The notes beneath the pieces were generated by a model. The model saw only the letters and a program-made list of their open reading frames with translations, had not been told where the DNA came from and made no database searches. The translations under genes were made by a program, and so were the position numbers. A stretch of 64,000 nt of DNA from sequence record PX418922.1, one strand, 5' to 3'. This stretch comes from a phage. Positions 2,038 through 49,830 of this stretch are shown in pieces (within the stretch, counting starts at the first letter, position 1; every line of letters begins with the position of its first letter).

Positions 2038-2394
2038 ATGAAAAAATTAATCTTAGCCACATTGCTGGCTACCGTAAGCTTCACCACTTACGCTCAAAAA
2101 TTTGTAGCAGTTAAAACAGATATTGGTAAAGATGTTGTGATCACAGGCAACAAGTTTTACTATACACCTGGAAATGGTGTTCTAGAAGAGTGTAAAGATG
2201 TTGAGGCATATACAGGAAAAGAAGATAACACGGAACGTCCTTTTTATTCGATTATAGCCACTTGCAAAAATGAAATAGTAGCTATTAAACAATATAAAGA
2301 TGCCCCTGGAGGAGAATACTTATTAGTCAAGAATATTAAGAGTGAAAAAACTGCAAAGTTTACAGTAATTATTTTAAAAGGAGAAACGTTCTAA
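2038..2394 (+). CDS. secreted or lipoprotein-like protein (118 aa)
   Basis: RBS GGAGGG; N-terminal signal peptide MKKLILATLLATVSFTTYA. Confidence 0.55.
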   Translation: MKKLILATLLATVSFTTYAQKFVAVKTDIGKDVVITGNKFYYTPGNGVLEECKDVEAYTGKEDNTERPFYSIIATCKNEIVAIKQYKDAPGGEYLLVKNIKSEKTAKFTVIILKGETF

Positions 2395-3533
2395 TGAAAT
2401 ACACTATTTTTGGAGATGTGGCTGTTGTAAATAAGGAATATGGTGTTGAAGCTAATAAACTTCCTGCTGGAGTTTGGGTTGTCAACTGCGATCCGCACGG
2501 TAACTACTCTTTAGTGCGTGGCGAAAGTTTCTCTCTTCCGAACACTCTTTATGGGGAAACTAAAGACCGCGCCGCACATGTTATTAAAACATTTGCTCGT
2601 CGTAGTAAAGAAGGTAAAAATACTGGGGTGTTACTGACAGGCACAAAAGGCAGTGGTAAGACGATGTTAGCTAAACTAATTAGCATGTCCCTAATGTCCA
2701 CAGAAGGTTTAGGTATTCCAACCATTTTGGTTACACAGCCTTACACAGATGCTGGCTTCTTAGAATTTATGAGTAAAATTACAGATCGTGCTGTTGTTTT
2801 ATTTGACGAATTTGATAAAGTGTACGCTAAGAAAGAAGATCAGGAAGCACTGTTGACCTTGTTGGATGGAACAGGAAGTGGGAATAAACTTTACATCCTA
2901 ACTAAAAATAGTGGTTATATCTCGGAATATTTTGTAAACCGTCCTAGTCGTATCTATTACAGTTTCAATTACGATAAACTGTCTAGTGAAACTATGTTAG
3001 ATTACTTGGATAAGAACTTGGTAAATAAAAAACACGTAGATAACTTCCAACGTTTATGGGATGTTAGCACAGAGTTGTCTTTCGATGTTATTCAAGGTAT
3101 TGTAGAAGAATTGAATTTCTATCCAAAAATGACTTTTAAAGAATGTCTTGAAATGATGGGTATTTCTTTAGGCAACGATGCTAAATGGAATGTGGCTTCT
3201 ATCGTAGCTAATGGCAAAACTCTGAAGGTGAATTGGATCAATAACTGGCACGACTTCACCCCTACTAAGTTTTTGTCGGGTGCTTGTTCCCTGAACATCT
3301 ATCTGCAAAGCTTGAAAGATGATGAAGTGGAAGCAATGGAAACCAACAGTTATGTTATCCTGGATGAAGATGGTGATCCACATATTGATCTATGTGCAAC
3401 TGCTGATGGTCTAACTTGTGATCTGATTGAAGGTGGTAAGATCCTGGTGATGAGCACTACACCAGGAAACACTCTGCGAGTGGTGCTGGAGCCTGTAACA
3501 CAACGTTCCACCACATTAGGTAGCGTGTTCTAA
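2394..3533 (+). CDS. P-loop NTPase (AAA-like ATPase)
   Basis: Walker A GTKGSGKT and Walker B VVLFDEFD motifs; RBS AAGGAG; 379 aa. Confidence 0.6.
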   Translation: MKYTIFGDVAVVNKEYGVEANKLPAGVWVVNCDPHGNYSLVRGESFSLPNTLYGETKDRAAHVIKTFARRSKEGKNTGVLLTGTKGSGKTMLAKLISMSLMSTEGLGIPTILVTQPYTDAGFLEFMSKITDRAVVLFDEFDKVYAKKEDQEALLTLLDGTGSGNKLYILTKNSGYISEYFVNRPSRIYYSFNYDKLSSETMLDYLDKNLVNKKHVDNFQRLWDVSTELSFDVIQGIVEELNFYPKMTFKECLEMMGISLGNDAKWNVASIVANGKTLKVNWINNWHDFTPTKFLSGACSLNIYLQSLKDDEVEAMETNSYVILDEDGDPHIDLCATADGLTCDLIEGGKILVMSTTPGNTLRVVLEPVTQRSTTLGSVF

Positions 3534-3608: not shown

Positions 3609-4595
3609 ATGGCAGCACCAAAATCATGGGAACAATATAAAGAAGAGTGTCAACCAATAGCAGAGAGTAAGCAAATCCAAATCTTAGGATGGACGGGAGA
3701 ATGGAAAGGGGTTAATACAAAACTTGATTTGTTGTGTCATTGTGGTTATAAATGGGATACTACAAGTATTAACAATTTTAAACGTGGTAGTGGTTGTCCT
3801 TTATGTGGATATGAGAATACAAGGAAGGCACAAACAATATCCGACGATCAACATATTGCAGATTTCTTTTCTACAGGGAAGTTTAAGGAAGGCACTATTT
3901 TCACCAATACGGGGGAACGTAAAGGGTGTGATCCAGTATGGATGATTCAGTGTCCTGTTTGTTCTCATGATGAATATGTTAAAGCTGGACTATGTGATGG
4001 TAAGTTTTATATGACGCGTGGCAATCTTAAATATGGATACTTACCCTGCCGTTGCTCTGCATCTTATAGGTATACAGCGGAACAGATTACGTATAAAGTA
4101 AGAAAGAAAATAGAAAAGAAAGGGTATGTTTGGATAGGATGGATTACCAAACCATCTTCTATAGGTAAGTTTAAATATATATGTAAGAGTCATGGGGAAC
4201 AAAAAGGAACTGCAAACAACCTTTTAAACATAGGACAAGGTTGTCCGCAGTGTGCTAACAAAAATCAACAACAAGCCTACATTAATTATATTTACGATGA
4301 GCAAGATATTATCTGTGCACTGAAGTTTGGTATTGCTAATAATAGTAATCGCCGTATGAAAGAACAAAATAGTCATAATGTGTTCACTATGAAACAACAC
4401 CAAGTGTGGCACTTCCCTACTGTTAAGCAATGCCAAAACGCAGAGAAATATTGCAAGAAGGTGTTAAACACGGAAGCAGTGAGCAAATATTCTATGCAAG
4501 ATGGCTACACAGAAACAGTGGAGCTATCTTGCATGGCATCCGTACAGAATATTTATAAACTTTATGGTGGAACATTACAGGAGGAAACATGTTAG
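3609..4595 (+). CDS. Cys-rich protein, paralogue of 20297-21277
   Basis: RBS GAGGAG; shares ILGWTGEWKG, QQAYIN..ALKFGIA and DGYTET blocks with 20297-21277; several CxxC pairs. Confidence 0.55.
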   Translation: MAAPKSWEQYKEECQPIAESKQIQILGWTGEWKGVNTKLDLLCHCGYKWDTTSINNFKRGSGCPLCGYENTRKAQTISDDQHIADFFSTGKFKEGTIFTNTGERKGCDPVWMIQCPVCSHDEYVKAGLCDGKFYMTRGNLKYGYLPCRCSASYRYTAEQITYKVRKKIEKKGYVWIGWITKPSSIGKFKYICKSHGEQKGTANNLLNIGQGCPQCANKNQQQAYINYIYDEQDIICALKFGIANNSNRRMKEQNSHNVFTMKQHQVWHFPTVKQCQNAEKYCKKVLNTEAVSKYSMQDGYTETVELSCMASVQNIYKLYGGTLQEETC

Positions 4596-42352: not shown

Positions 42353-42925
42353 TCAAATTATTAACGAAACCGCATGACTAAATCTTGGTTCAGATATAAC
42401 CTCTGCTACAGTCACATATGTATCGTGCAGCCAAAAAGATTCTACTCTACAAACACAAATACCGTTGATAATGAAATCTACACAGGCTTTATTATTTTCG
42501 CACACTTGTTGACTATAAACAACCCCTAAAGAGTCATAAAGTGATCTCACTGTTGCTACCATTTCATCTGTTTCGTCTTCCTGTGAAACAAAGAAAACGA
42601 ATACAGACAAGTTATTAGCGAAAGTATTGCTATTCTCTACTTCAACCGACTTACAAGGTAAAAAGGAGTAATATTTACCGTTAGGTATCAATTTCGCCTC
42701 AACCTGGTTAAGTATGCTTTGAGATGGTTTTGTTACATAAAAAAGATTTTCTGTTGGGTTTTCAACATTGCTCCTTACTATGCAACGAGTGGGGTTCGAA
42801 GGATCAAAAACATGATCGAAATCGACACACACAGGTAAGTTAACAACTTTAAACTTTTTGCTAAGAATGCTTACTGCTGTAAAAATCAAACCAGCATTTA
42901 TTTTGCCAGTGAAAGTTGAACGCAT
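42353..42925 (-). CDS. hypothetical protein (190 aa)
   Basis: ATG 42925 with RBS GAGGAG; in-frame upstream ATG at 42943 also possible. Confidence 0.5.
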   Translation of the reverse strand: MRSTFTGKINAGLIFTAVSILSKKFKVVNLPVCVDFDHVFDPSNPTRCIVRSNVENPTENLFYVTKPSQSILNQVEAKLIPNGKYYSFLPCKSVEVENSNTFANNLSVFVFFVSQEDETDEMVATVRSLYDSLGVVYSQQVCENNKACVDFIINGICVCRVESFWLHDTYVTVAEVISEPRFSHAVSLII

Positions 42926-42939
42926 AACTACTCCTCGGA

Positions 42940-43134
42940 TCATTCTACCAAAGAGAATTCCGCCTCTTCCAGGTAGATTACAGACCTTGTTGCATGATAT
43001 TTAACGCTCCAGAAATTACCTTCGCGCCGTAAAAGTATCTCATTCACATCAAGATTGCTTAGAAAAACCATATAACTTAAAGCTTGTTGACGCGTTGAGA
43101 ATTGTTTCTCTAAAAGTTCTTCTCCGCTCTGCAT
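42940..43134 (-). CDS. hypothetical protein (64 aa)
   Basis: Minus-strand ORF. Confidence 0.45.
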   Translation of the reverse strand: MQSGEELLEKQFSTRQQALSYMVFLSNLDVNEILLRREGNFWSVKYHATRSVIYLEEAEFSLVE

Positions 43135-43632: not shown

Positions 43633-44142
43633 TTAAACAAAATAAAATGGTTGAGAGAGGCCCAAACGATTCTTTGGGTCGTATACATACCAAGCGTATG
43701 CTGTCTTATCTGTTCCACCTGCAACAAACGAAGGCCGTTCTGAAAGGACTATAAGGTTTGTTGGTGGATTCTTTTGATGGAACTCTCGTCGTTTCTTTGA
43801 CTCCAAGAAGCCCAACCGAAGAAGATAAATACAAACATCCGCCTCTTTTAAGCTCTTTTCCAAGAACTCCATTGCCAACTTAAATGGAGGATTTGTGATT
43901 ATAATGTCGGGACGATTTTCCCATTCATGACTAAAATAATCTTTACCTTCTTCAAGTTCGCAATATTCTGAACCTTCAGGAAAATGGCGATAAATCGCTT
44001 CAGCTTCACCTCTGCAAGGTTCTGCAAAAACCCAACCTTCTTCCTTTAGATTTTTGAAATCTATAACACTAAACAAACTATTGATTGCTTTTTGCGGTGT
44101 CGGATAATAATCGCTCGTTGGGCGATCATAATCTAATGCCAT
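43633..44142 (-). CDS. DNA N6-adenine methyltransferase (small phage Dam-like)
   Basis: Catalytic DIIITNPPF (NPPF) motif and N-terminal YYPTPQKAINSL. Confidence 0.7.
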   Translation of the reverse strand: MALDYDRPTSDYYPTPQKAINSLFSVIDFKNLKEEGWVFAEPCRGEAEAIYRHFPEGSEYCELEEGKDYFSHEWENRPDIIITNPPFKLAMEFLEKSLKEADVCIYLLRLGFLESKKRREFHQKNPPTNLIVLSERPSFVAGGTDKTAYAWYVYDPKNRLGLSQPFYFV

Positions 44143-44560
44143 CTAAAATCTCCTCTTTTGTAATATTATCCAACTCTTTAAAGGATGAAATCTCGTTTAA
44201 TAATCCTATTTGATCAGCCTCTAGAGGATAAGTGTTTTTATCTGTTTTTCTAGACAGAATATCTTCAACAAACTTATCAATAGCCAAAGAAGAATCATAA
44301 AATTTTAAAAGTTGGTAATCCATAGGAGATATTTTGTCATCTCTTAGAAATATTTCTAACATGTTTTCAGGAGTATCGTGGTTTAGTTTATGTTCACCAA
44401 AAATATTAACTTCGTAAACATCTTTGCCAAACCAACGTTTTTTCTTTTCAACAGTATAGGTTTTTGCCACCAGACCATCTAAACAGTTTCTTGCCCTCTT
44501 ACATGTTTGACGGTAAGAGTGGATAGCGCCTTCAACAAACTTAGCAGGAACTTGTAACAT
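44126..44560 (-). CDS. hypothetical protein (144 aa)
   Basis: RBS AGGAG before ATG 44560. Confidence 0.5.
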   Translation of the reverse strand: MLQVPAKFVEGAIHSYRQTCKRARNCLDGLVAKTYTVEKKKRWFGKDVYEVNIFGEHKLNHDTPENMLEIFLRDDKISPMDYQLLKFYDSSLAIDKFVEDILSRKTDKNTYPLEADQIGLLNEISSFKELDNITKEEILDGIRL

Positions 44561-44584: not shown

Positions 44585-44600
44585 TGCCCCCGAAGGGGCA
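44585..44600 (-). terminator. CUUCGG-type hairpin terminator, minus strand
   Basis: Minus-strand TGCCCC-TTCG-GGGGCA followed by TTTCTT. Confidence 0.55.
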
Positions 44601-44605
44601 GTTTG

Positions 44606-45298
44606 TTAAATAGCGGTTCCTTCGAAATCCGCCACATTTACGAGATTAATATTTTCAGATTTAGAAGTCAAGTTGTTTTCTGCAACAGATTTTTCTTCAG
44701 TATCCGCCTCGTTACCTGCCACGTTACGAGGTTCTTCTTCACCGTAGGGATTACCGAATTTCAAAAGATTGATCAATTCTTCTTTGGAGAAGTTTTCTAA
44801 ATCATCGTCTGTTAATTCAATAATCTCGTCTTGTTCTTCAATAAATGTTTCACCACCAGAAAAAGCATCTCGCTTTTTAGCTACTTCCATAGCCTGTTCT
44901 GGTGTTGCCCCTGCATCAAGAGCAGCTAAAGCAAAGTCTGACCCACTTCCTACCGCATAATATTCTTCATCAATCGGATATGCACGTGTTGGGTTGTTAC
45001 CTTCGTGCAGGAAAATACGTCCGTCTGGATGAACAACAAGTGCAATAAACTCTTCATCTTCTTTATCTGGATCAGAGTGAATCATCAAACCAGGGACAGC
45101 ATCACGTGCTGCTTCGCACTGTAGATTTTGTTCAAACCATTGAAAGAAAGAAAGCACGGAGGTCAGACGACCAGCACCACCTACAAGGTAATCTCCAATT
45201 TTTCGGACCTTTTTGAAATTAATAGAATCTACACGTCCACCAAAAGTTACCTTACCATCACTCAAAATCTTATTTTTGGTTGCAATAATTGTCGTCAC
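44606..45298 (-). CDS. HslV-like Ntn-hydrolase peptidase with acidic C-terminal extension
   Basis: N-terminal MTTIIATKN (Thr nucleophile after Met), GG..D motif, YAVGSGSDFALAALDAG resemble HslV/ClpQ; ~50-aa acidic tail. Confidence 0.7.
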   Translation of the reverse strand: MTTIIATKNKILSDGKVTFGGRVDSINFKKVRKIGDYLVGGAGRLTSVLSFFQWFEQNLQCEAARDAVPGLMIHSDPDKEDEEFIALVVHPDGRIFLHEGNNPTRAYPIDEEYYAVGSGSDFALAALDAGATPEQAMEVAKKRDAFSGGETFIEEQDEIIELTDDDLENFSKEELINLLKFGNPYGEEEPRNVAGNEADTEEKSVAENNLTSKSENINLVNVADFEGTAI

Positions 45299-45801
45299 TA
45301 TTCTTCCTCCTCTGTTAATGTTTTAAGAACCGCTTTCCCACCATTCACATATTTGCAGATGTATTCTATCGCACGTAGTGTCTCTTTGTCAACAAAAATT
45401 TGATCAGACGTTGCGAGCGGGTTATTAAGAAGATCACTGCAATCACGAACAAGCAGTGCTTTCTTATTAAACAAATTACTTAAGAACAGTAACTTCGCCT
45501 CTTCTTCTGTTATGTGCAGAAGGCTAGGATCGGAGCCAGCTATTCCTATTATACAATCAAACAAGCTTTCTTTACTATCAGAAAGTTCTTGAAAATGGTT
45601 TAAAAGCCAATCTTCTCCTAGACACCAACATTTAAACATTTCCAGTTTATCTCGGAGGGTCATATTCTCTAAAGTAAGAGCAATCTCTTTTTCAATATGG
45701 TTTACACAAATTTGACGAAATTCGTTAGGTTTTACGAGTCCCGTTTGATAGCACTCATCTATACCGCTTCTTCCGATAGCTATTGTTGCTACACCCATCA
45801 A
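45298..45801 (-). CDS. hypothetical protein (167 aa)
   Basis: Minus-strand ORF immediately upstream of HslV-like gene. Confidence 0.5.
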   Translation of the reverse strand: MMGVATIAIGRSGIDECYQTGLVKPNEFRQICVNHIEKEIALTLENMTLRDKLEMFKCWCLGEDWLLNHFQELSDSKESLFDCIIGIAGSDPSLLHITEEEAKLLFLSNLFNKKALLVRDCSDLLNNPLATSDQIFVDKETLRAIEYICKYVNGGKAVLKTLTEEEE

Positions 45802-45833: not shown

Positions 45834-46592
45834 TTAAATAAACACTTCAGTAATCAGTTTAGACAAACGTCCACGTTTATTATCGTCCGTTGTCAGTTCA
45901 ACGTATCCAATAAAATCTACAATTGGCTCACGAACACCTTCTTCATTTTCTGGATATAAAAGTTCCAAAATTTGATGCAGACCATTGCTACGTTTTTTAA
46001 TTGCATATGTCTGGCGAACATCGCCTAATACAATAACATGCGTATTAATACCTGCACGTTCAATAAGAAGTTTAAGTGTTTCTGTTGACATAAGTTGTGC
46101 TTCGTCAATAATGACGATTGTATTATCCAGGGTGGCCCCCAACAAATAGTTAGGAATATTCAATTCGATCTTACCTGATCCAATATCGTTTTCCAATTTG
46201 TTGGCTGTCATGAATTGCTGGAAAATACGTTTTGTAGATTCATAGTGTGCTGCTAGTTTATCTGTTTTATCCCCAGACAAGAAACCAATCTGGTCATCTC
46301 CGACTTCAGTAGGGTTCTTGATAAAAAGTAGTTTACGGAAGTCTCCTGAACGAAGCATCTGCAAAGCTTTCCATAAAGCAACAGAGGTTTTACCAGTCCC
46401 TGCCGGAGCATTTACAACAGTCAGATCATTCCAGATCATGCTTTGAACAATCTTATTTTGGTCCCCTTCAGGCATAAATTCATCTAAACGGTAATCGTCA
46501 TTACCTACCGCTTTTGCTGCATAACGGCTTTCAATCTTTGCTGAATTAGCCAATTTCTGCCGTTGTGTTTTAGCTGCGGTTTTATTTCCCAT
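45834..46592 (-). CDS. phoH: PhoH-like ATPase
   Basis: Walker A GTGKTSVA, Walker B IVIIDEAQ; start ATG 46592 with RBS AAGGAG (ORF-track start 46643 lies in terminator). Confidence 0.8.
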   Translation of the reverse strand: MGNKTAAKTQRQKLANSAKIESRYAAKAVGNDDYRLDEFMPEGDQNKIVQSMIWNDLTVVNAPAGTGKTSVALWKALQMLRSGDFRKLLFIKNPTEVGDDQIGFLSGDKTDKLAAHYESTKRIFQQFMTANKLENDIGSGKIELNIPNYLLGATLDNTIVIIDEAQLMSTETLKLLIERAGINTHVIVLGDVRQTYAIKKRSNGLHQILELLYPENEEGVREPIVDFIGYVELTTDDNKRGRLSKLITEVFI

Positions 46593-46609
46593 AGTAGCAC
46601 TCCTTTTAG

Positions 46610-46627
46610 AAGGGGCCGAAGCCCCTT
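46610..46627 (-). terminator. GGGGCUUCGGCCCC hairpin terminator, minus strand
   Basis: Minus-strand AAGGGGC-TTCG-GCCCCTT right after lysozyme stop. Confidence 0.55.
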
Positions 46628-46629
46628 TA

Positions 46630-47130
46630 TTAGTTGTAAGCATCTAAAGTTCCAGAAGTCAGAACTTTAATTACTCGTTCAGCACGGTTTGGCGTCTGGC
46701 TATACCATCGGCTTTTACGCATGTTTTTACCTGCTTGAGTATAATATGCATTGCTGATTAAAGTCAAGCTATTTTGAAACCCTTCAGCACCTTTTAACCC
46801 CAACTGGAAAACCATGTTGATTATTCCCAATTTACGAGTATCACTAACCTTATCATAGATTGGTGATAAGATAGCACTGTTTTTTATGTCTCTCTTCACT
46901 TTTGCAACATCGTCAGCAAAGATTTGACGGGCTTCTTTTTCTGTGATAACTCCATTAGTCTTACGACCAAGAAGATTATCTAAGATTTGAATAGCCTTTG
47001 CTTTATCTTTTATTTTAGTCAGAAGGTGTCCTATGCCGACTGTCCAATAACCAAGATGGTCTTGATAAACAGTAAGCTTCAGTCCTTCATCGACTCGTAG
47101 CATATCAAACTCATCTACTACTTTAGCCAT
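46630..47130 (-). CDS. e: T4-type lysozyme (endolysin, muramidase)
   Basis: Strong similarity to T4 lysozyme: MLRVDEGLKL..Y.D..GYWTVGIGHLLTK, catalytic Glu/Asp context, INMVFQLG, KSRWYSQTPNRAERVI. Confidence 0.85.
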   Translation of the reverse strand: MAKVVDEFDMLRVDEGLKLTVYQDHLGYWTVGIGHLLTKIKDKAKAIQILDNLLGRKTNGVITEKEARQIFADDVAKVKRDIKNSAILSPIYDKVSDTRKLGIINMVFQLGLKGAEGFQNSLTLISNAYYTQAGKNMRKSRWYSQTPNRAERVIKVLTSGTLDAYN

Positions 47131-47292: not shown

Positions 47293-47553
47293 TTACTCCG
47301 CAATTTGAGCCATGAGATCACGCAGTTCGGTAAAACCGCCTACGTATGTTACCTCCCCGTTCACTTCAGACAGAATTTGTGGAAATGTGCGTGGAGGAAC
47401 TCCGGTAAGATCAACAACTGTTTTAGTCATTGATTCTAAATCATAGTCTTGATCAAGACTTAAATATTCAAACTGTTTATTGCGCATGGTTAATAGTTGT
47501 TTTGACATTTCACAAAATTGACAGTTAGGTTTACCAAAAATTACAAATTCCAT
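47293..47553 (-). CDS. glutaredoxin/NrdH-like redoxin
   Basis: CQFC active-site motif in GKPNCQFCE context, thioredoxin-fold size (86 aa); RBS AAGGAG. Confidence 0.75.
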   Translation of the reverse strand: MEFVIFGKPNCQFCEMSKQLLTMRNKQFEYLSLDQDYDLESMTKTVVDLTGVPPRTFPQILSEVNGEVTYVGGFTELRDLMAQIAE

Positions 47554-48395
47554 TACCTCTCCTTATTAAGTAATACTGCTAAAGACTGTTCAATACCTTT
47601 ATTTAAATCTGATTTTGTAAGATAGTGACTGGTTACTAGTTGTGACTTCACCGGACGTGCTGCTGGAGCATTATAGGTTGAAGCTGATACCGCCGATATC
47701 TTAACAGGTTCTGGCATCTGTGTCAAGATCTTTTCCGCAAACTCCGCCCAAGAAATAAGATGGCTTCCTGCAAAATGGTAAGTCTTAACAGACCTTGACC
47801 AACCTGTTTTTAATACTTCAAAAATAGCTTCTGCTAAATCTGGAGCATATGTTGGACAAGAGAACTGATCAGCAACAATAATAAAATCACGTTGTCCATC
47901 ATTATAGCGAGACAACATGGTTTTTAGAAAGTTATTTCCAAATTCGCTATATACCGAGGCTGTTCGAATAATATATGCATTTGGGTTAACTCCTCGCACC
48001 ATTTTTTCACCAAGTTCTTTCGTATACCCATAATTGTTTATTGGGTTAGGTGTAGTATCTTCAAAAATAGGATGAGAATAATTAAAAATATAGTCTGTAG
48101 AAATATGCACAAAATCAATTTTAAGTTTGCTGCACACTGCCGCAATATTTGCAGGTCCATACGCATTAACAGCCAAAGCAGTAGCAAAATCATGTTCTGC
48201 TTTATCTACAGCCGTATAAGCGGCGCAATTAATAACACCATCTACATAATCTTCAATAATAGCGTTTCGCACAGCTTCAAAATTTGTAATATCTACACGT
48301 TCTTTAGGATAAATTAAAGATACATTTGAAGGAGCCACTTTACGTAAAGCTTGTCCCAGTTGTCCATTACCGCCCAATACCAGATATGTTAGCAT
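47553..48395 (-). CDS. rmlD: dTDP-4-dehydrorhamnose reductase
   Basis: N-terminal LVLGGNGQLGQAL Rossmann motif and overall RmlD-like sequence; last gene of rmlBACD block. Confidence 0.8.
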   Translation of the reverse strand: MLTYLVLGGNGQLGQALRKVAPSNVSLIYPKERVDITNFEAVRNAIIEDYVDGVINCAAYTAVDKAEHDFATALAVNAYGPANIAAVCSKLKIDFVHISTDYIFNYSHPIFEDTTPNPINNYGYTKELGEKMVRGVNPNAYIIRTASVYSEFGNNFLKTMLSRYNDGQRDFIIVADQFSCPTYAPDLAEAIFEVLKTGWSRSVKTYHFAGSHLISWAEFAEKILTQMPEPVKISAVSASTYNAPAARPVKSQLVTSHYLTKSDLNKGIEQSLAVLLNKER

Positions 48396-48955
48396 ACACC
48401 CTCGCTACGTAACTGTTGAAAAGATTTAGCCATTGCATCTTTTGTTGATAGGATAGGTTTAAAACCTTCGTCAAAAATCATATCGAAGCCCCAATCGATC
48501 CCTATATCAGGATCATCCCAACGTAAACTTTGTTCACTAGAAGGGTCGTATGGAGTTGTGCATTTGTATTCAAAGATAGCATCCATACTCAAAACTATAA
48601 AACCATGAGCCAAACCAGGCGGAAGCCAAAACTGCGTATGGTGTCGTGCACGAAGAACAACACCGTCCCAAGCACCGTAAGTTGGACTATCTTTACGTAA
48701 ATCTACAGCGAAATCCAATACTTCCCCACTTACACAACGAACTAGCTTACCTTGCGGGTTATTTGTTTGAAAGTGCATTCCTCGCAAAACACCGAAGTTT
48801 GATTTAGACATGTTATCTTGAACGAAAGTTTGTCTACCAATAATATCTTCGTATTTTTGTTCATTATATGTTTCTAGAAAGAAACCACGATCATCTTTAT
48901 AAACGTCTGGTTTGATAATTACCGCACCTTCAATTTTTGTTTTTTCTACTTTCAT
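48389..48955 (-). CDS. rmlC: dTDP-4-dehydrorhamnose 3,5-epimerase
   Basis: RmlC-like DDRGFF..E and RGMHFQ motifs; ATG 48955 with RBS GGAGAG overlapping rmlA stop (ATGA). Confidence 0.8.
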
Positions 48956-49830
48956 TTTCTCTCCGCTAATTTGAGTAGGTATTGCCCGTACTCTGTTTTC
49001 TTCAGTGAGTTTCCATGATACACCAAAGTCTCTAAAGAAATCCACCCTTTTTTGAAAGCAATTTCTTCCAGGCACGCAATCTTCAATCCTTGACGGTTCT
49101 CAATAGTCTGCACGAATTGACCAGCTTCCATCAGACTGGCGTGTGTTCCTGTGTCAAGCCAAGTAAATCCTCGTCCGAGAACTTCCACTTGTAACTTCCT
49201 GTCTTCTAGGTAGCTGCGATTGATATCAGTGATCTCCAGTTCTCCACGCGCGGAAGGGGTTACTTCTAATGCACGTTGAATAACAGAGTTATCATAGAAA
49301 TACAAACCTGTGACAGCATAATCTGATTTAGGATTTTCAGGTTTCTCTTCAATAGAAATAGCTTGACGATTACTCCCAAATTCAACCACACCGAATCGTT
49401 CAGGATCTTTCACCAAATACCCGAAGATACAAGCTCCACCCCAAACATCTACCATCTCACTAGCGTTAATCAGTAGTTTACCAAAGCTTTGTCCGAAGAA
49501 TAGGTTGTCACCTAAAATAAGAGCAACAGAGTCTTCTCCGATAAAATCTTTACCGATGATGAAAGCGTCAGCAAGACCTCGTGGCTCGGATTGGATTGCG
49601 TAAGTGAGTTTTATCCCAAACATAGATCCATCTCCGAGAAGATACTCAAAGTCTTCCTGATCGCCTGGTGTGGTGATGATTAAGATATCCTTAATATCAG
49701 CCAACATCAATACCGATAAAGGGTAGTAGATCATGGGTTTGTCATACACAGGGAGCAATTGCTTGCTCACACTGCGTGTTACCGGATGAAGGCGGGTTCC
49801 ACTTCCTCCCGCCAAAATAATACCTTTCAT
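48952..49830 (-). CDS. rmlA: glucose-1-phosphate thymidylyltransferase
   Basis: N-terminal [18 protein letters not shown] nucleotidyltransferase motif; RmlA-like throughout. Confidence 0.85.

What the first reader, a model, noticed from the sequence alone, without database searches (positions are those of the whole stretch)
44606..45801. Phage-encoded HslV-like peptidase with a long acidic tail and no HslU partner in the window
44606-45298 starts MTTIIATKN (N-terminal Thr nucleophile after Met removal) and keeps the HslV core blocks, but adds a ~50-aa acidic C-terminal extension. No HslU-like AAA+ unfoldase is visible nearby; the adjacent upstream gene (45298-45801) is an unknown 167-aa protein. 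A phage proteasome-like protease could act in virion maturation, in degrading host defence proteins, or by borrowing host HslU.
Basis: partly seen in the sequence, partly recalled or inferred. Interest (0 to 1): 0.55.

Follow-up and report, generated by a model that had tools for sequence, protein, structure and literature searches.

The report
Orphan phage proteasome-like peptidase gene
This E. coli phage gene encodes a small proteasome-like threonine peptidase of a phage-specific type, with an acidic tail and no ATPase partner; it is already annotated in public genomes, a related phage that has lost it was still isolated as a viable phage, and its function is untested.

Summary
Window 44606-45298 (-) is a 230-aa ORF (GTG start, strong Shine-Dalgarno, MTTIIATKN). 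It keeps the Thr1/Asp17/Lys33/Gly-Ser-Gly proteasome catalytic set and models confidently as a proteasome-type N-terminal-nucleophile (Ntn) hydrolase fold. A roughly 73-aa C-terminal extension follows: a conserved two-helix hairpin, then a fast-evolving acidic disordered tail (net charge -14). No HslU homologue exists in the window or in the whole phAPEC8 genome.

The window is a Phapecoctavirus (99.9% identical to published phages). The gene is already annotated 'peptidase HslV family' (PHROG 1040). It is not an HslV orthologue. It scores 32 bits against a 137-bit HslV cut-off and is 27% identical to E. coli HslV. It also lacks apical helix H2, the stated hallmark of the PPH/RPC phage proteasome homologues of Fuchs, Alva and Lupas (2021).

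Virion maturation is unlikely, because the phage has its own S78-type prohead protease beside the portal gene. Canonical host-HslU docking is weakened, because part of the HslU-tail pocket lies in the missing H2. The PhoH / 167-aa / peptidase cassette is conserved in this lineage but was lost in phage VEcB, so it is accessory.

Function is unknown. It is a known kind and moderately interesting.

The parts
44606..45298 (-). Gene for the 230-aa proteasome-like (PPH/RPC-type, 'HslV family') N-terminal-threonine peptidase, equivalent to phAPEC8 gp175. Stop codon at 44606-44608.
   Evidence: ORF list. PHROG 1040, E=1.6e-63. Pfam PF00227 above its gathering score. AF2 model and Foldseek. 99.6% identical to RefSeq 'peptidase HslV family' proteins.
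44828..45298 (-). Catalytic core, aa 1-157. Thr2 becomes Thr1 after Met removal. Asp14, Lys30, Gly43 and Gly117-Ser118-Gly119 align with HslV D17, K33, the Gly-rich A-G-F-A-G-G segment (residues 44-49, exact register not settled) and G123-S124-G125. Residues 68-83 are a loop where HslV has helix H2.
   Evidence: Invariant or nearly invariant columns in alignments A1, A2, A4 and A5. Secondary structure and pLDDT of the AF2 model.
44753..44821 (-). Conserved post-core helical hairpin, aa about 160-182 (IELTDDDLENFSKEELINLLKFG). The motif is L-T-x-E-x-[LA]-x-x-[MFL]-[ST]-K-E-[EQ]-L.
   Evidence: Helices 164-169 and 172-181, pLDDT 86-89. The motif is kept in extended homologues down to about 29% identity.
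44609..44752 (-). Acidic, intrinsically disordered C-terminal tail, aa about 183-230. The sequence is not conserved, but the negative charge is.
   Evidence: pLDDT 36-49 over the last blocks. Column conservation is 0.10-0.24 here against 0.56-0.86 across most core blocks (0.48 in the loop at residues 61-70). Tail net charge is -8 to -27 in nearly all extended homologues. pI 4.1.
45306..45312 (-). Shine-Dalgarno GAGGAGG ahead of the GTG start. The stop and start overlap (TAGTG at 45296-45300), which suggests translational coupling with the upstream gene.
   Evidence: Sequence read directly. The same arrangement in phi92 is a 4-nt overlap with an AGGAG ribosome-binding site.
45298..45801 (-). 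Upstream 166/167-aa protein of unknown function (phAPEC8 gp174, PHROG 14834). It is acidic and mostly alpha-helical, and is the lineage-specific companion of the peptidase. The likely true start is the ATG at 45798.
45834..46643 (-). PhoH-like P-loop ATPase gene, the first gene of the conserved PhoH / 167-aa / peptidase cassette. RefSeq uses a later start, equivalent to window 46592.
   Evidence: Pfam PhoH E=1.2e-36. The order PhoH - [167-aa family] - peptidase is seen in phAPEC8, phi92 and metagenomic contigs L007 and L008. PhoH also lies a few genes upstream in Vibrio and Aeromonas phages.
44585..44600 (-). Terminator-like GC-rich hairpin (TGCCCCTTCGGGGGCA followed by TTTCTT), 5 nt after the peptidase stop codon. 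It may end the transcription unit.
   Evidence: Consensus scan. The number of such sites in the region is not above the shuffled expectation, so only the position is suggestive.
45363..45392 (-). Sigma-70-like promoter match (TTGACA, 18 nt, TAGAAT; 11 of 12) inside the 3' part of the 167-aa gene, about 65 nt upstream of the peptidase start.
   Evidence: Consensus scan only. The promoter count in the region is not above chance, so this is weak evidence.

Best explanation
SHOWN. [quoted passage not shown] It is not a captured host HslV. It keeps the full N-terminal-threonine catalytic apparatus. Thr1 would be exposed simply by methionine removal, as in E. coli HslV, and there is no propeptide. 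It keeps helices H1, H3 and H4 but has a loop in place of apical helix H2. It carries a conserved two-helix hairpin followed by an acidic disordered tail. It lies in the leftward nucleotide-metabolism gene block (RNR, glutaredoxin, lysozyme, PhoH, 167-aa, peptidase). Its start overlaps the stop of the 167-aa gene. It is accessory: phage VEcB carries an in-frame deletion that removes its catalytic N-terminus, the whole 167-aa gene and half of PhoH.

INFERRED, as the most likely mechanism. During the pre-late phase of infection the protein assembles into HslV-like stacked rings, through the retained H3/H4 face. It acts in the cytoplasm as a self-compartmentalised threonine peptidase without a dedicated AAA+ unfoldase, cutting peptides or unfolded and disordered proteins. 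The C-terminal hairpin and acidic tails project from the particle, as C-termini do in this family. They would serve as the docking or gating element that replaces the lost H2/HslU interface, recruiting basic or partner proteins. One candidate partner is the co-translated 167-aa protein. Substrates are unknown. Host proteins, for takeover or counter-defence, are more likely than virion proteins.
For: Identity and class:
- PHROG 1040, E=1.6e-63; Pfam PF00227 above its gathering score.
- Foldseek hits to HslV, BPH and 20S beta at E about 1e-10.
- Catalytic residues T2, D14, K30, G43 and G117-S118-G119 are invariant or nearly invariant in alignments A1, A2, A4 and A5.
- The AF2 model shows H45-67, then a loop at 68-83, then H120-128 and H133-143. 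So H2 is absent.
- Fuchs et al. 2021 state that 'PPH/RPC ... lacks the second helix (H2)', that PPH is about 140 aa and occurs in Caudovirales and their hosts, and that RPC carries a C-terminal extension.
- The family profile finds 4,306 representatives at E<=1e-10. After about 57 extended ones, these form a continuum of 137-160-aa proteins.
- That profile gives the compact proteins 98-121 bits and E. coli HslV 46 bits.

Not a recent host capture: 27% identity to E. coli HslV, and 40% GC against 52.7% for the host gene.

No ATPase partner:
- No HslU homologue anywhere in phAPEC8 or the window.
- No AAA+ gene next to homologues in Vibrio, Caulobacter, Rhodobacter or Aeromonas phages, or in contigs L007 and L008.

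Tail: the hairpin motif is conserved to about 29% identity. The distal tail is unconserved but always acidic.

Cassette and coupling.

Dispensability: the VEcB fusion ORF is PhoH aa 1-113 joined to peptidase aa 65 to the end.

Not a head protease: phAPEC8 gp117 beside the portal gene matches Peptidase_S78_2 (XkdF), E=1.4e-11.
Against: No experiment exists for any member of this family, as far as the library shows.
- Oligomeric state was not modelled, because only a monomer could be predicted. Fuchs et al. warn that some new homologues may not form stacked rings.
- Membership of PPH/RPC rests on a shared structural hallmark, size, distribution and profile scores. It was not tested against the authors' reference sequences, which were not available here.
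- HslV on its own is a very poor peptidase, so an ATPase-free protease may need an activator that I did not identify.
- Early or middle expression is inferred from gene position only.
- The partner role of the 167-aa protein rests on synteny within one phage lineage. Its family is absent next to the homologues in Vibrio, Aeromonas, Caulobacter and Rhodobacter phages.
Confidence: 0.55

Rival explanations
1. HslU hijack. The phage peptidase docks onto the host's HslU hexamer and uses it as its unfoldase, redirecting or competing with host HslVU proteolysis.
For: All known hosts of phages carrying this family are Proteobacteria; from general knowledge, not tested here, these encode HslUV. The nearest solved relatives are HslVs. 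The H1-side pocket positions remain hydrophobic: HslV F54 and F57 correspond to L49 and F52. There is no phage HslU, so an unfoldase, if needed, would have to come from the host.
Against: Apical helix H2 is replaced by an acidic loop in the model. H2 carries pocket residues A79 and K80 of Ec/Hi HslV and faces HslU. Q114 is replaced by Tyr. Identity to E. coli HslV is only 27%. The whole PPH class lacks H2. HslV Lys28, which I recall from memory as the partner of the HslU C-terminal carboxylate, aligns with Ser or Asp.
Confidence: 0.15
2. The phage's own AAA-family ATPase (window 2394-3533, phAPEC8 gp014) is the unfoldase partner of the peptidase.
For: It matches Pfam AAA PF00004 (29.9 bits against a gathering score of 21.2). 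It has weak phmmer hits to classical-clade unfoldases (Rix7, Afg2, VCP, Cdc48; E about 5e-4) and faint NCBIfam hits to proteasome-activating nucleotidases. Some depositors call its homologues 'FtsH-like protease'.
Against: It lies 41 kb away on the other strand, in a different gene block next to a CapR-domain nuclease. Its family (397 phage records: Herelleviridae-type Bacillus, Staphylococcus and Enterococcus phages, crAss-like phages) does not track the peptidase family (234 records: Stephanstirmvirinae, Vibrio, Aeromonas, Caulobacter, Rhizobium). Other PHROG hits point to clamp-loader and DnaC-like proteins. By eye I saw no aromatic-hydrophobic-Gly pore loop and no HbYX-like or HslU-like C-terminus (...TTLGSVF).
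Confidence: 0.05
3. It is a virion or prohead maturation protease.
Against: A dedicated Peptidase_S78_2 (XkdF-type) prohead protease gene lies directly after the portal gene in phAPEC8. The gene under study is far from the structural module, among nucleotide-metabolism genes. VEcB, isolated and deposited as a complete phage, lacks the catalytic N-terminus. The 2026 whole-virion phi92 structure paper does not contain the terms gp58, gp058, protease or HslV.
Confidence: 0.02
4. Non-proteolytic role. The protein is a decoy that titrates a host factor through its acidic, nucleic-acid-like tail or its HslV-like surface, or it catalyses a different Ntn reaction such as ligation or transpeptidation, as the proteasome homologue connectase does.
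For: The tail composition is conserved while its sequence is not, as in electrostatic mimics. Proteasome homologues include a ligase, connectase, cited. Many long homologues end in a module that looks like an HeH/Rho_N motif, a type that in other proteins binds nucleic acids.
Against: The complete hydrolytic catalytic set is invariant across thousands of relatives. That would not be needed for a pure decoy. The HeH-like reading has only one sub-threshold Pfam hit (E=0.027, 14.9 bits against 24.9).
Confidence: 0.1

Closest known systems
PPH / RPC proteasome homologues (Fuchs, Alva and Lupas 2021, Bioinformatics 37:4694; PMC8665760)
   Same: A group I proteasome homologue close to HslV and BPH. 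It is encoded by tailed phages. It has the Thr1/Asp17/Lys33 set plus the oxyanion Gly, no propeptide, and no helix H2. RPC members add a C-terminal extension of unknown fold. No ATPase partner is known and the function is unknown.
   Different: The core here is about 157 aa with a 16-residue loop where H2 would be, rather than the about 140-aa minimal PPH. According to that paper's Table 1, RPC was found only in Proteobacteria, not in phages, whereas this extended form is phage-encoded. I could not compare directly with the paper's reference sequences (WP_042125023.1, WP_140207863).
Bacterial HslV (ClpQ), the peptidase of the HslUV protease
   Same: The nearest solved structures and sequences (T. 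maritima 1m4y, E=4.9e-9; S. aureus 6kui, Foldseek 8.9e-11). Like E. coli hslV, it starts GTG-Thr-Thr, so Thr1 would be exposed by Met removal. The Gly-Ser-Gly loop and Lys33 are conserved.
   Different: Only 27% identity. It fails the HslV equivalog cut-offs by more than 100 bits. H2 is absent, so the apical HslU-facing surface and part of the HslU-tail pocket are remodelled. No adjacent hslU gene. An extra 73-aa C-terminal extension.
BPH and Anbu, stand-alone bacterial proteasome homologues
   Same: Proteasome-fold Thr peptidase homologues that are encoded without a cognate AAA+ ATPase. BPH is the second-best Foldseek hit (5ovt, 2.3e-10).
   Different: BPH and Anbu keep all four flanking helices and are cellular, not phage, proteins. 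phmmer similarity to BPH is marginal (E=1). Their physiological roles are also unknown.
'HslV' genes noted in other phages, such as Salmonella jumbo phage pSal-SNUABM-04 (PMC7823757)
   Same: The literature already notes that a phage encodes HslV subunit genes with no HslU.
   Different: Those jumbo-phage genes were not compared here and may belong to another proteasome-homologue cluster. There are no functional data for them either.

Membership tests
Proteasome-type Ntn hydrolase superfamily (Pfam PF00227; proteasome beta / HslV fold) | Sequence score above the curated Pfam gathering threshold | tested here: met
   25.6 bits against 22.4, E=1.1e-5.
Proteasome-type Ntn hydrolase superfamily (Pfam PF00227; proteasome beta / HslV fold) | Alpha-beta-beta-alpha sandwich fold matching solved proteasome beta or HslV subunits | tested here: met
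   AF2 model, pLDDT 83.7 with the core above 90. Foldseek against PDB gives 921 hits at E<=1e-3. The top hits are HslV, BPH and 20S beta, at probability 1.00 and target-normalised TM 0.55-0.69.
Proteasome-type Ntn hydrolase superfamily (Pfam PF00227; proteasome beta / HslV fold) | N-terminal Thr nucleophile with Asp17, Lys33, the oxyanion Gly and the Gly-Ser-Gly loop | tested here: met
   T2, D14, K30, G43 and G117-S118-G119 are invariant or nearly invariant in alignments A1, A2, A4 and A5, and align with the E. coli HslV residues. Catalysis itself was not tested.
HslV (NCBIfam TIGR03692 / NF003964 equivalogs) | Score above the equivalog cut-off | tested here: not met
   32.2 bits against 137, and 31.4 bits against 157.75.
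HslV (NCBIfam TIGR03692 / NF003964 equivalogs) | Two pairs of flanking helices, including apical helix H2 that faces HslU | tested here: not met
   The AF2 model has a loop at residues 68-83 between H1 (45-67) and the next strand.
HslV (NCBIfam TIGR03692 / NF003964 equivalogs) | A cognate HslU AAA+ gene, normally adjacent in an hslVU operon | tested here: not met
   phmmer with E. coli HslU at E<=10 gives no hit in six-frame ORFs of the window or of the whole phAPEC8 genome. The neighbours are PhoH and unknown proteins.
HslV (NCBIfam TIGR03692 / NF003964 equivalogs) | Dodecameric double hexamer activated by HslU C-terminal tails | not testable with these tools
   Only monomer prediction was available. 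Pocket residues A79 and K80 (PMC6429459) fall in the missing H2.
PPH / RPC (Fuchs et al. 2021) | Lacks the second helix (H2) while keeping the S1-S11 core and the catalytic triad | tested here: met
   (model) together (the paper's statement).
PPH / RPC (Fuchs et al. 2021) | Encoded by Caudovirales phages, or by prophage regions of their hosts | tested here: met
   234 phage records carry a homologue. The window itself is a Phapecoctavirus.
PPH / RPC (Fuchs et al. 2021) | Compact size of about 140 residues (PPH), or a PPH-like core plus a C-terminal extension (RPC) | tested here: inconclusive
   The core is about 157 aa and the extension about 73 aa, so the architecture is RPC-like. The profile search shows a continuum from extended proteins (180-350 aa) to 137-160-aa proteins. 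The paper lists RPC only in Proteobacteria.
PPH / RPC (Fuchs et al. 2021) | Sequence clustering with the authors' PPH or RPC reference sequences | not testable with these tools
   WP_042125023.1 and WP_140207863 are not retrievable here. The held supplement is only 2 kb of text and was not opened.
PHROG 1040 'peptidase HslV family' | Profile match over the full length | tested here: met
   E=1.6e-63, residues 1-229 on profile positions 14-247 of 277.

The most novel reading that the evidence does not exclude
The gene encodes an ATPase-independent phage 'mini-proteasome'. Its ring of acidic tails and conserved helical hairpins captures basic or nucleic-acid-binding host proteins, such as nucleoid-associated or defence proteins, and feeds them to a Thr1 active site. 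The co-translated 167-aa protein would act as a cap, adaptor or timer. This would be a phage host-takeover or counter-defence protease of a type never characterised.
Probability: 0.12. Interest if true: 0.7.

Novelty: already known. Interest (0 to 1): 0.3.

Why it matters
No phage proteasome homologue has a known function in the literature I could search. This one sits in easily handled E. coli phages (phAPEC8, phi92, several BASEL isolates), and a natural deletion variant (VEcB) exists. That makes it a practical entry point to ask what PPH-type peptidases do and whether a proteasome-fold protease can work without an AAA+ unfoldase. As a genome-scan finding, however, it is an already annotated member of an already described family. 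What this analysis adds is modest:
- It reclassifies the gene from 'HslV' to the H2-less PPH/RPC type.
- It gives the anatomy of the extension: a conserved hairpin followed by an acidic disordered tail.
- It defines the conserved PhoH / 167-aa / peptidase cassette.
- It provides evidence that the cassette is dispensable.
- It excludes a head-maturation role.

Tried and rejected
1. HslU search. phmmer with E. coli HslU against all six-frame ORFs of at least 50 aa in the window and the whole phAPEC8 genome found nothing at E<=10.
2. Phage AAA ATPase (2394-3533) as partner. Rejected as a dedicated partner because its taxonomic distribution does not match and it lies in a different gene block.
4. 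Rosetta-stone idea, that the extra C-terminal domains of long homologues equal the 167-aa protein. Dropped, because contigs with long homologues (L007, L008) still carry a separate 153-170-aa homologue of the neighbour.
5. The neighbour family next to distant homologues. hhalign was negative for the flanking genes in Vibrio 1.193.O, Aeromonas 2L372D, RcXuper and phiCbK.
6. Pfam on C-terminal extensions of ten long homologues and on eight excised tails. The only result was one sub-threshold Rho_N hit.
7. The listing of cluster members on ten compact or extended relatives, to find names or the PPH reference accession. It returned only generic 'HslV' labels from JGI.
8. Literature. No paper combines phAPEC8 or Phapecoctavirus with a functional study of this gene. 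The phi92 virion paper does not mention it.
9. The 159-aa 'truncated' protein P0023 is an annotation that starts at internal Met72. It is not a natural tail-only or core-only variant.
10. The 'repeat_region' annotated inside the gene in phage tuntematon is a 44-nt automatic feature. No meaningful repeats were found here.
Full report
1. THE OBSERVATION

The ORF at 44606..45298 on the minus strand is real. It encodes 230 aa, starts with GTG and reads MTTIIATKN.... A GAGGAGG Shine-Dalgarno lies 7 nt upstream. The GTG overlaps the TAG stop of the upstream ORF by one base, TAGTG. E. coli hslV likewise begins GTG-Thr-Thr. So an N-terminal Thr exposed by methionine aminopeptidase is a fair expectation from established knowledge of HslV.

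The protein matches known families far beyond chance:
- PHROG 1040 'peptidase HslV family', E=1.6e-63.
- Pfam Proteasome just above its gathering score, 25.6 against 22.4 bits.
- T. maritima HslV in the PDB, E=4.9e-9.

The region beyond the core is acidic. Residues 166-230 hold 15 D/E against 5 K/R, pI 4.1.

The upstream ORF (45298..45801) is PHROG 14834, unknown function, E=2.6e-103. It probably starts at the ATG one codon in, giving 166 aa as in RefSeq.

2. WHERE THE WINDOW COMES FROM

The 2.7 kb around the gene is 99.5-99.9% identical to more than 60 published Phapecoctavirus genomes (phAPEC8, ESCO5/13, tuntematon, vB_EcoM_01 and others). These are E. coli myoviruses of about 150 kb in the subfamily Stephanstirmvirinae. 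RefSeq already labels the gene 'peptidase HslV family'. Other depositors call it 'ATP-dependent protease subunit HslV' or 'putative 20S proteasome'.

A tblastn search finds homologues in 234 phage records:
- Phapecoctavirus and Justusliebigvirus (phi92-like), 66-100% identity.
- Aeromonas and Vibrio phages, about 35%.
- Caulobacter phiCbK-like, Rhizobium and Rhodobacter phages, about 30%.

3. FOLD AND CATALYTIC RESIDUES

An AF2 model built on 63 homologues has mean pLDDT 83.7, with 10-residue block means of 83-99 over residues 1-160. Foldseek against the PDB returns HslV (S. aureus 6kui, 8.9e-11), BPH (5ovt) and archaeal and eukaryotic 20S beta subunits, all at probability 1.00.

Four alignments were examined:
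- close homologues (A1, A2);
- 51 extended representatives down to 29% identity (A4);
- compact homologues together with E. coli HslV (A5).

In all of them the following residues are invariant or nearly so: T2 (Thr1), D14, K30, G43 and G117-S118-G119. They align with HslV Thr1, Asp17, Lys33, the Gly-rich loop and Gly123-Ser124-Gly125.

4. IT IS NOT AN HslV PROPER

- The two NCBIfam HslV equivalog models give 32.2 and 31.4 bits against cut-offs of 137 and 157.75.
- Identity to E. coli HslV is 27% over 156 residues.
- The gene's GC content is 40%, close to the phage average of 38.7% and unlike host hslV at 52.7%. This is not a recent capture from the host.
- In the model, H1 (45-67) is followed by a 16-residue acidic loop with Pro and Gly (68-83). 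HslV and proteasome beta subunits have helix H2 at this position. H3 (120-128) and H4 (133-143) are present.

Fuchs, Alva and Lupas (2021) catalogued new proteasome homologues. [quoted passage not shown] A profile of this family searched against 1.84 billion cluster representatives finds 10,332 proteins at E<=1e-3 and 4,306 at E<=1e-10. The top 57 or so are extended forms of 180-350 aa. After them comes a long continuum of 137-160-aa proteins that match from residue 1 to their end. The same profile scores those compact proteins at 98-121 bits, phage homologues of 148-169 aa at 65-81 bits, and E. coli HslV at 46 bits. In alignment A5 the compact proteins simply delete the H2 region.

I therefore place the protein in the PPH/RPC type. 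I could not test clustering with the authors' reference sequences.

5. THE EXTENSION

It has two parts.

Residues about 160-182 (IELTDDDLENFSKEELINLLKFG) are predicted as two short helices (164-169 and 172-181) with pLDDT 86-89. Their motif, L-T-x-E-x-[LA]-x-x-[MFL]-[ST]-K-E-[EQ]-L, is retained in extended homologues down to about 29% identity.

Residues about 183-230 are predicted to be disordered (pLDDT 36-49). Their sequence is barely conserved: top-residue frequency is 0.10-0.24, against 0.56-0.86 across most core blocks (0.48 in the loop at residues 61-70). The negative charge, however, is kept. Net tail charge is -8 to -27 in nearly every extended homologue.

Longer homologues (260-380 aa) add further domains with no Pfam match. 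Many end in a module that looks to me like an HeH/Rho_N motif. Only one of eight excised segments gave a Rho_N hit, and it was below threshold (E=0.027). That reading is only a lead.

6. PARTNERS

No HslU homologue exists in the window or in the whole phAPEC8 genome.

The window does contain an AAA-family ATPase at 2394-3533 (+), equivalent to phAPEC8 gp014:
- Pfam AAA 29.9 bits; PHROG 2376.
- Weak similarity to classical-clade unfoldases.
- It lies 41 kb away in another gene block.
- Its family (397 phage records, mostly phages of Firmicutes and crAss-like phages) does not co-vary with the peptidase family.

I do not regard it as the partner.

None of the neighbourhoods of distant homologues that I inspected contains an AAA+ gene.

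On host HslU: a paper on Leishmania HslV lists Ec/Hi HslV residues F54, F57, Q114, A79 and K80 as lining the pocket for the HslU C-terminus. Here F54 and F57 correspond to L49 and F52, so they stay hydrophobic. Q114 corresponds to Y108. A79 and K80 fall in the missing H2. Canonical docking is therefore doubtful, but it is not excluded.

7. GENOMIC CONTEXT

The gene lies in the leftward block of nucleotide-metabolism genes. The order is RNR, glutaredoxin, T4-type lysozyme, PhoH-like ATPase, 167-aa protein, then the peptidase.

The same order, PhoH - [homologue of the 167-aa protein] - peptidase, occurs in phi92 and in two distant metagenomic contigs whose peptidases are only 42-49% identical. 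hhalign gives 99.5% and 99.8% probability for the neighbour. The stop/start overlap between neighbour and peptidase is also kept in phi92.

Outside this lineage the neighbour family is not found next to the homologue. Its link to the peptidase is therefore lineage-specific synteny, not independent co-occurrence.

The neighbour models confidently (pLDDT 92.3) as a mostly helical protein with no informative structural match.

A terminator-like hairpin follows the peptidase stop at 44585-44600 (-). A sigma-70-like match lies inside the neighbour gene. Both are consensus matches only.

8. DISPENSABILITY, AND EXCLUSION OF A HEAD-MATURATION ROLE

In Justusliebigvirus VEcB, the about 1.9 kb that holds PhoH, gp059 and gp058 in phi92 is replaced by a single 804-nt ORF. 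Its product is PhoH residues 1-113 fused in frame to the peptidase from residue 65. That deletion removes the residues equivalent to Thr1, Asp17 and Lys33, and the entire neighbour gene. VEcB is nevertheless deposited as a complete genome of an E. coli phage isolated from sewage. I infer that the cassette is accessory under laboratory conditions.

In phAPEC8, the gene directly after the portal gene is annotated 'DNA methyltransferase' in RefSeq. It matches Peptidase_S78_2 (XkdF-type prohead protease) at E=1.4e-11. Head maturation therefore has its own enzyme.

The 2026 whole-virion structure paper on phi92 does not contain the terms gp58, gp058, protease or HslV.

9. MECHANISM AND VERDICT

Shown:
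- an intact Thr1-type active site on a proteasome fold without H2;
- a conserved post-core hairpin followed by an acidic disordered tail;
- no phage HslU gene;
- a location in an early or middle type metabolic block;
- a start codon overlapping the stop of an unknown 166-aa protein's gene;
- accessory status.

Inferred:
- ring assembly through the retained H3/H4 face;
- ATPase-independent cleavage of peptides or unfolded proteins in the infected cytoplasm;
- tails that act as outward docking or gating elements, possibly engaging the neighbour protein;
- host rather than virion substrates.

Rivals, in order of likelihood: host-HslU hijack (0.15), a non-proteolytic or decoy role (0.10), the phage AAA ATPase as partner (0.05), and virion maturation (0.02).

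The thing itself is already annotated, and its family has already been described. The remark that phages carry 'HslV' without HslU is also in print, for a Salmonella jumbo phage. I found no functional study of any phage member.

I rate it 'already known' in kind and of moderate-to-low interest (0.3). There is a real but unproven upside if it turns out to be an ATPase-independent host-takeover or counter-defence protease.

Noticed in passing
L002:16487-16966 (phAPEC8 66487-66966; outside the 64-kb window): phAPEC8 gp117, directly after the portal gene, is annotated 'DNA methyltransferase' in RefSeq. It matches Pfam Peptidase_S78_2 (XkdF prohead serine protease) at E=1.4e-11. This is a likely mis-annotation, and the gene is probably the phage's real head-maturation protease.
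   Followed up: partly
window 2394-3533 (+) and 3609-4595 (+): A 379-aa AAA-family ATPase (PHROG 2376) has weak similarity to classical-clade unfoldases (Rix7, Afg2, VCP). It is followed by a protein with four CapR-homology repeats and a zinc-finger domain, annotated 'endonuclease'. The ATPase family is widespread in Herelleviridae-type and crAss-like phages. Its function is unknown.
   Followed up: partly
L012:2165-2968 (Escherichia phage VEcB, NC_052663.1 21495-22298): A natural in-frame deletion of about 1.13 kb fuses PhoH aa 1-113 to the peptidase from aa 65. It removes the whole 167-aa-family gene and the catalytic N-terminus. RefSeq labels the chimera 'peptidase HslV family'.
   Followed up: yes
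P0133, P0138, P0154, P0156, P0158, P0160, P0167, P0131 (C-terminal 40-50 aa): Many long homologues of the peptidase end in a shared module, for example LTLKELRGVCDSLEIQYSSKTTKQVLAECIVEDI. It resembles an HeH/SAP/Rho_N helix-extended-helix motif. Only one sub-threshold Pfam Rho_N hit supports this (E=0.027).
   Followed up: partly
L006 (phiCbK 120233-132682) and L009 (RcXuper 83294-93731): In alphaproteobacterial phages the compact proteasome homologue sits among NAD-salvage genes (nicotinamide/nicotinate phosphoribosyltransferase, NMNAT/Nudix) and RNA- or DNA-repair genes (RNA ligase, polynucleotide kinase, DNA ligase). This context differs from the PhoH cassette of the enterobacterial phages.
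   Followed up: no
window 47553-49830 (-) and beyond: The phage encodes a dTDP-sugar pathway: glucose-1-phosphate thymidylyltransferase, dTDP-4-dehydrorhamnose 3,5-epimerase and reductase-like epimerases. phAPEC8 has four glycosyltransferase genes elsewhere. The target of the sugar (DNA, virion or host surface) was not examined.
   Followed up: no
window 45363-45392 (-): A strong sigma-70 consensus match (TTGACA, 18 nt, TAGAAT; 11 of 12) lies inside the 3' end of the 167-aa gene, about 65 nt upstream of the peptidase start. It could allow the peptidase to be expressed independently of its neighbour. The promoter count in the region is not above chance.
   Followed up: no
window 44126-44560 (-): The 144-aa gene just downstream of the peptidase (PHROG 15078, E=4.2e-83) has no Pfam or NCBIfam match. 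It overlaps the start of a DNA methyltransferase gene. Its function is unknown.
   Followed up: no
window 42353-42943 (-) (phAPEC8 gp181): RefSeq annotates this 190-aa-class ORF, and a second one (gp042), as 'histidyl tRNA synthetase'. That is far too short for a HisRS, so the annotation is probably a partial-domain match or an over-annotation.
   Followed up: no
P0023 (Escherichia phage vB_EcoM-Ro121c4YLVW): In this genome the peptidase is annotated as a 159-aa 'hypothetical protein' starting at internal Met72. That start loses the catalytic Thr1. This is an annotation start-site error rather than a biological truncation.
   Followed up: yes
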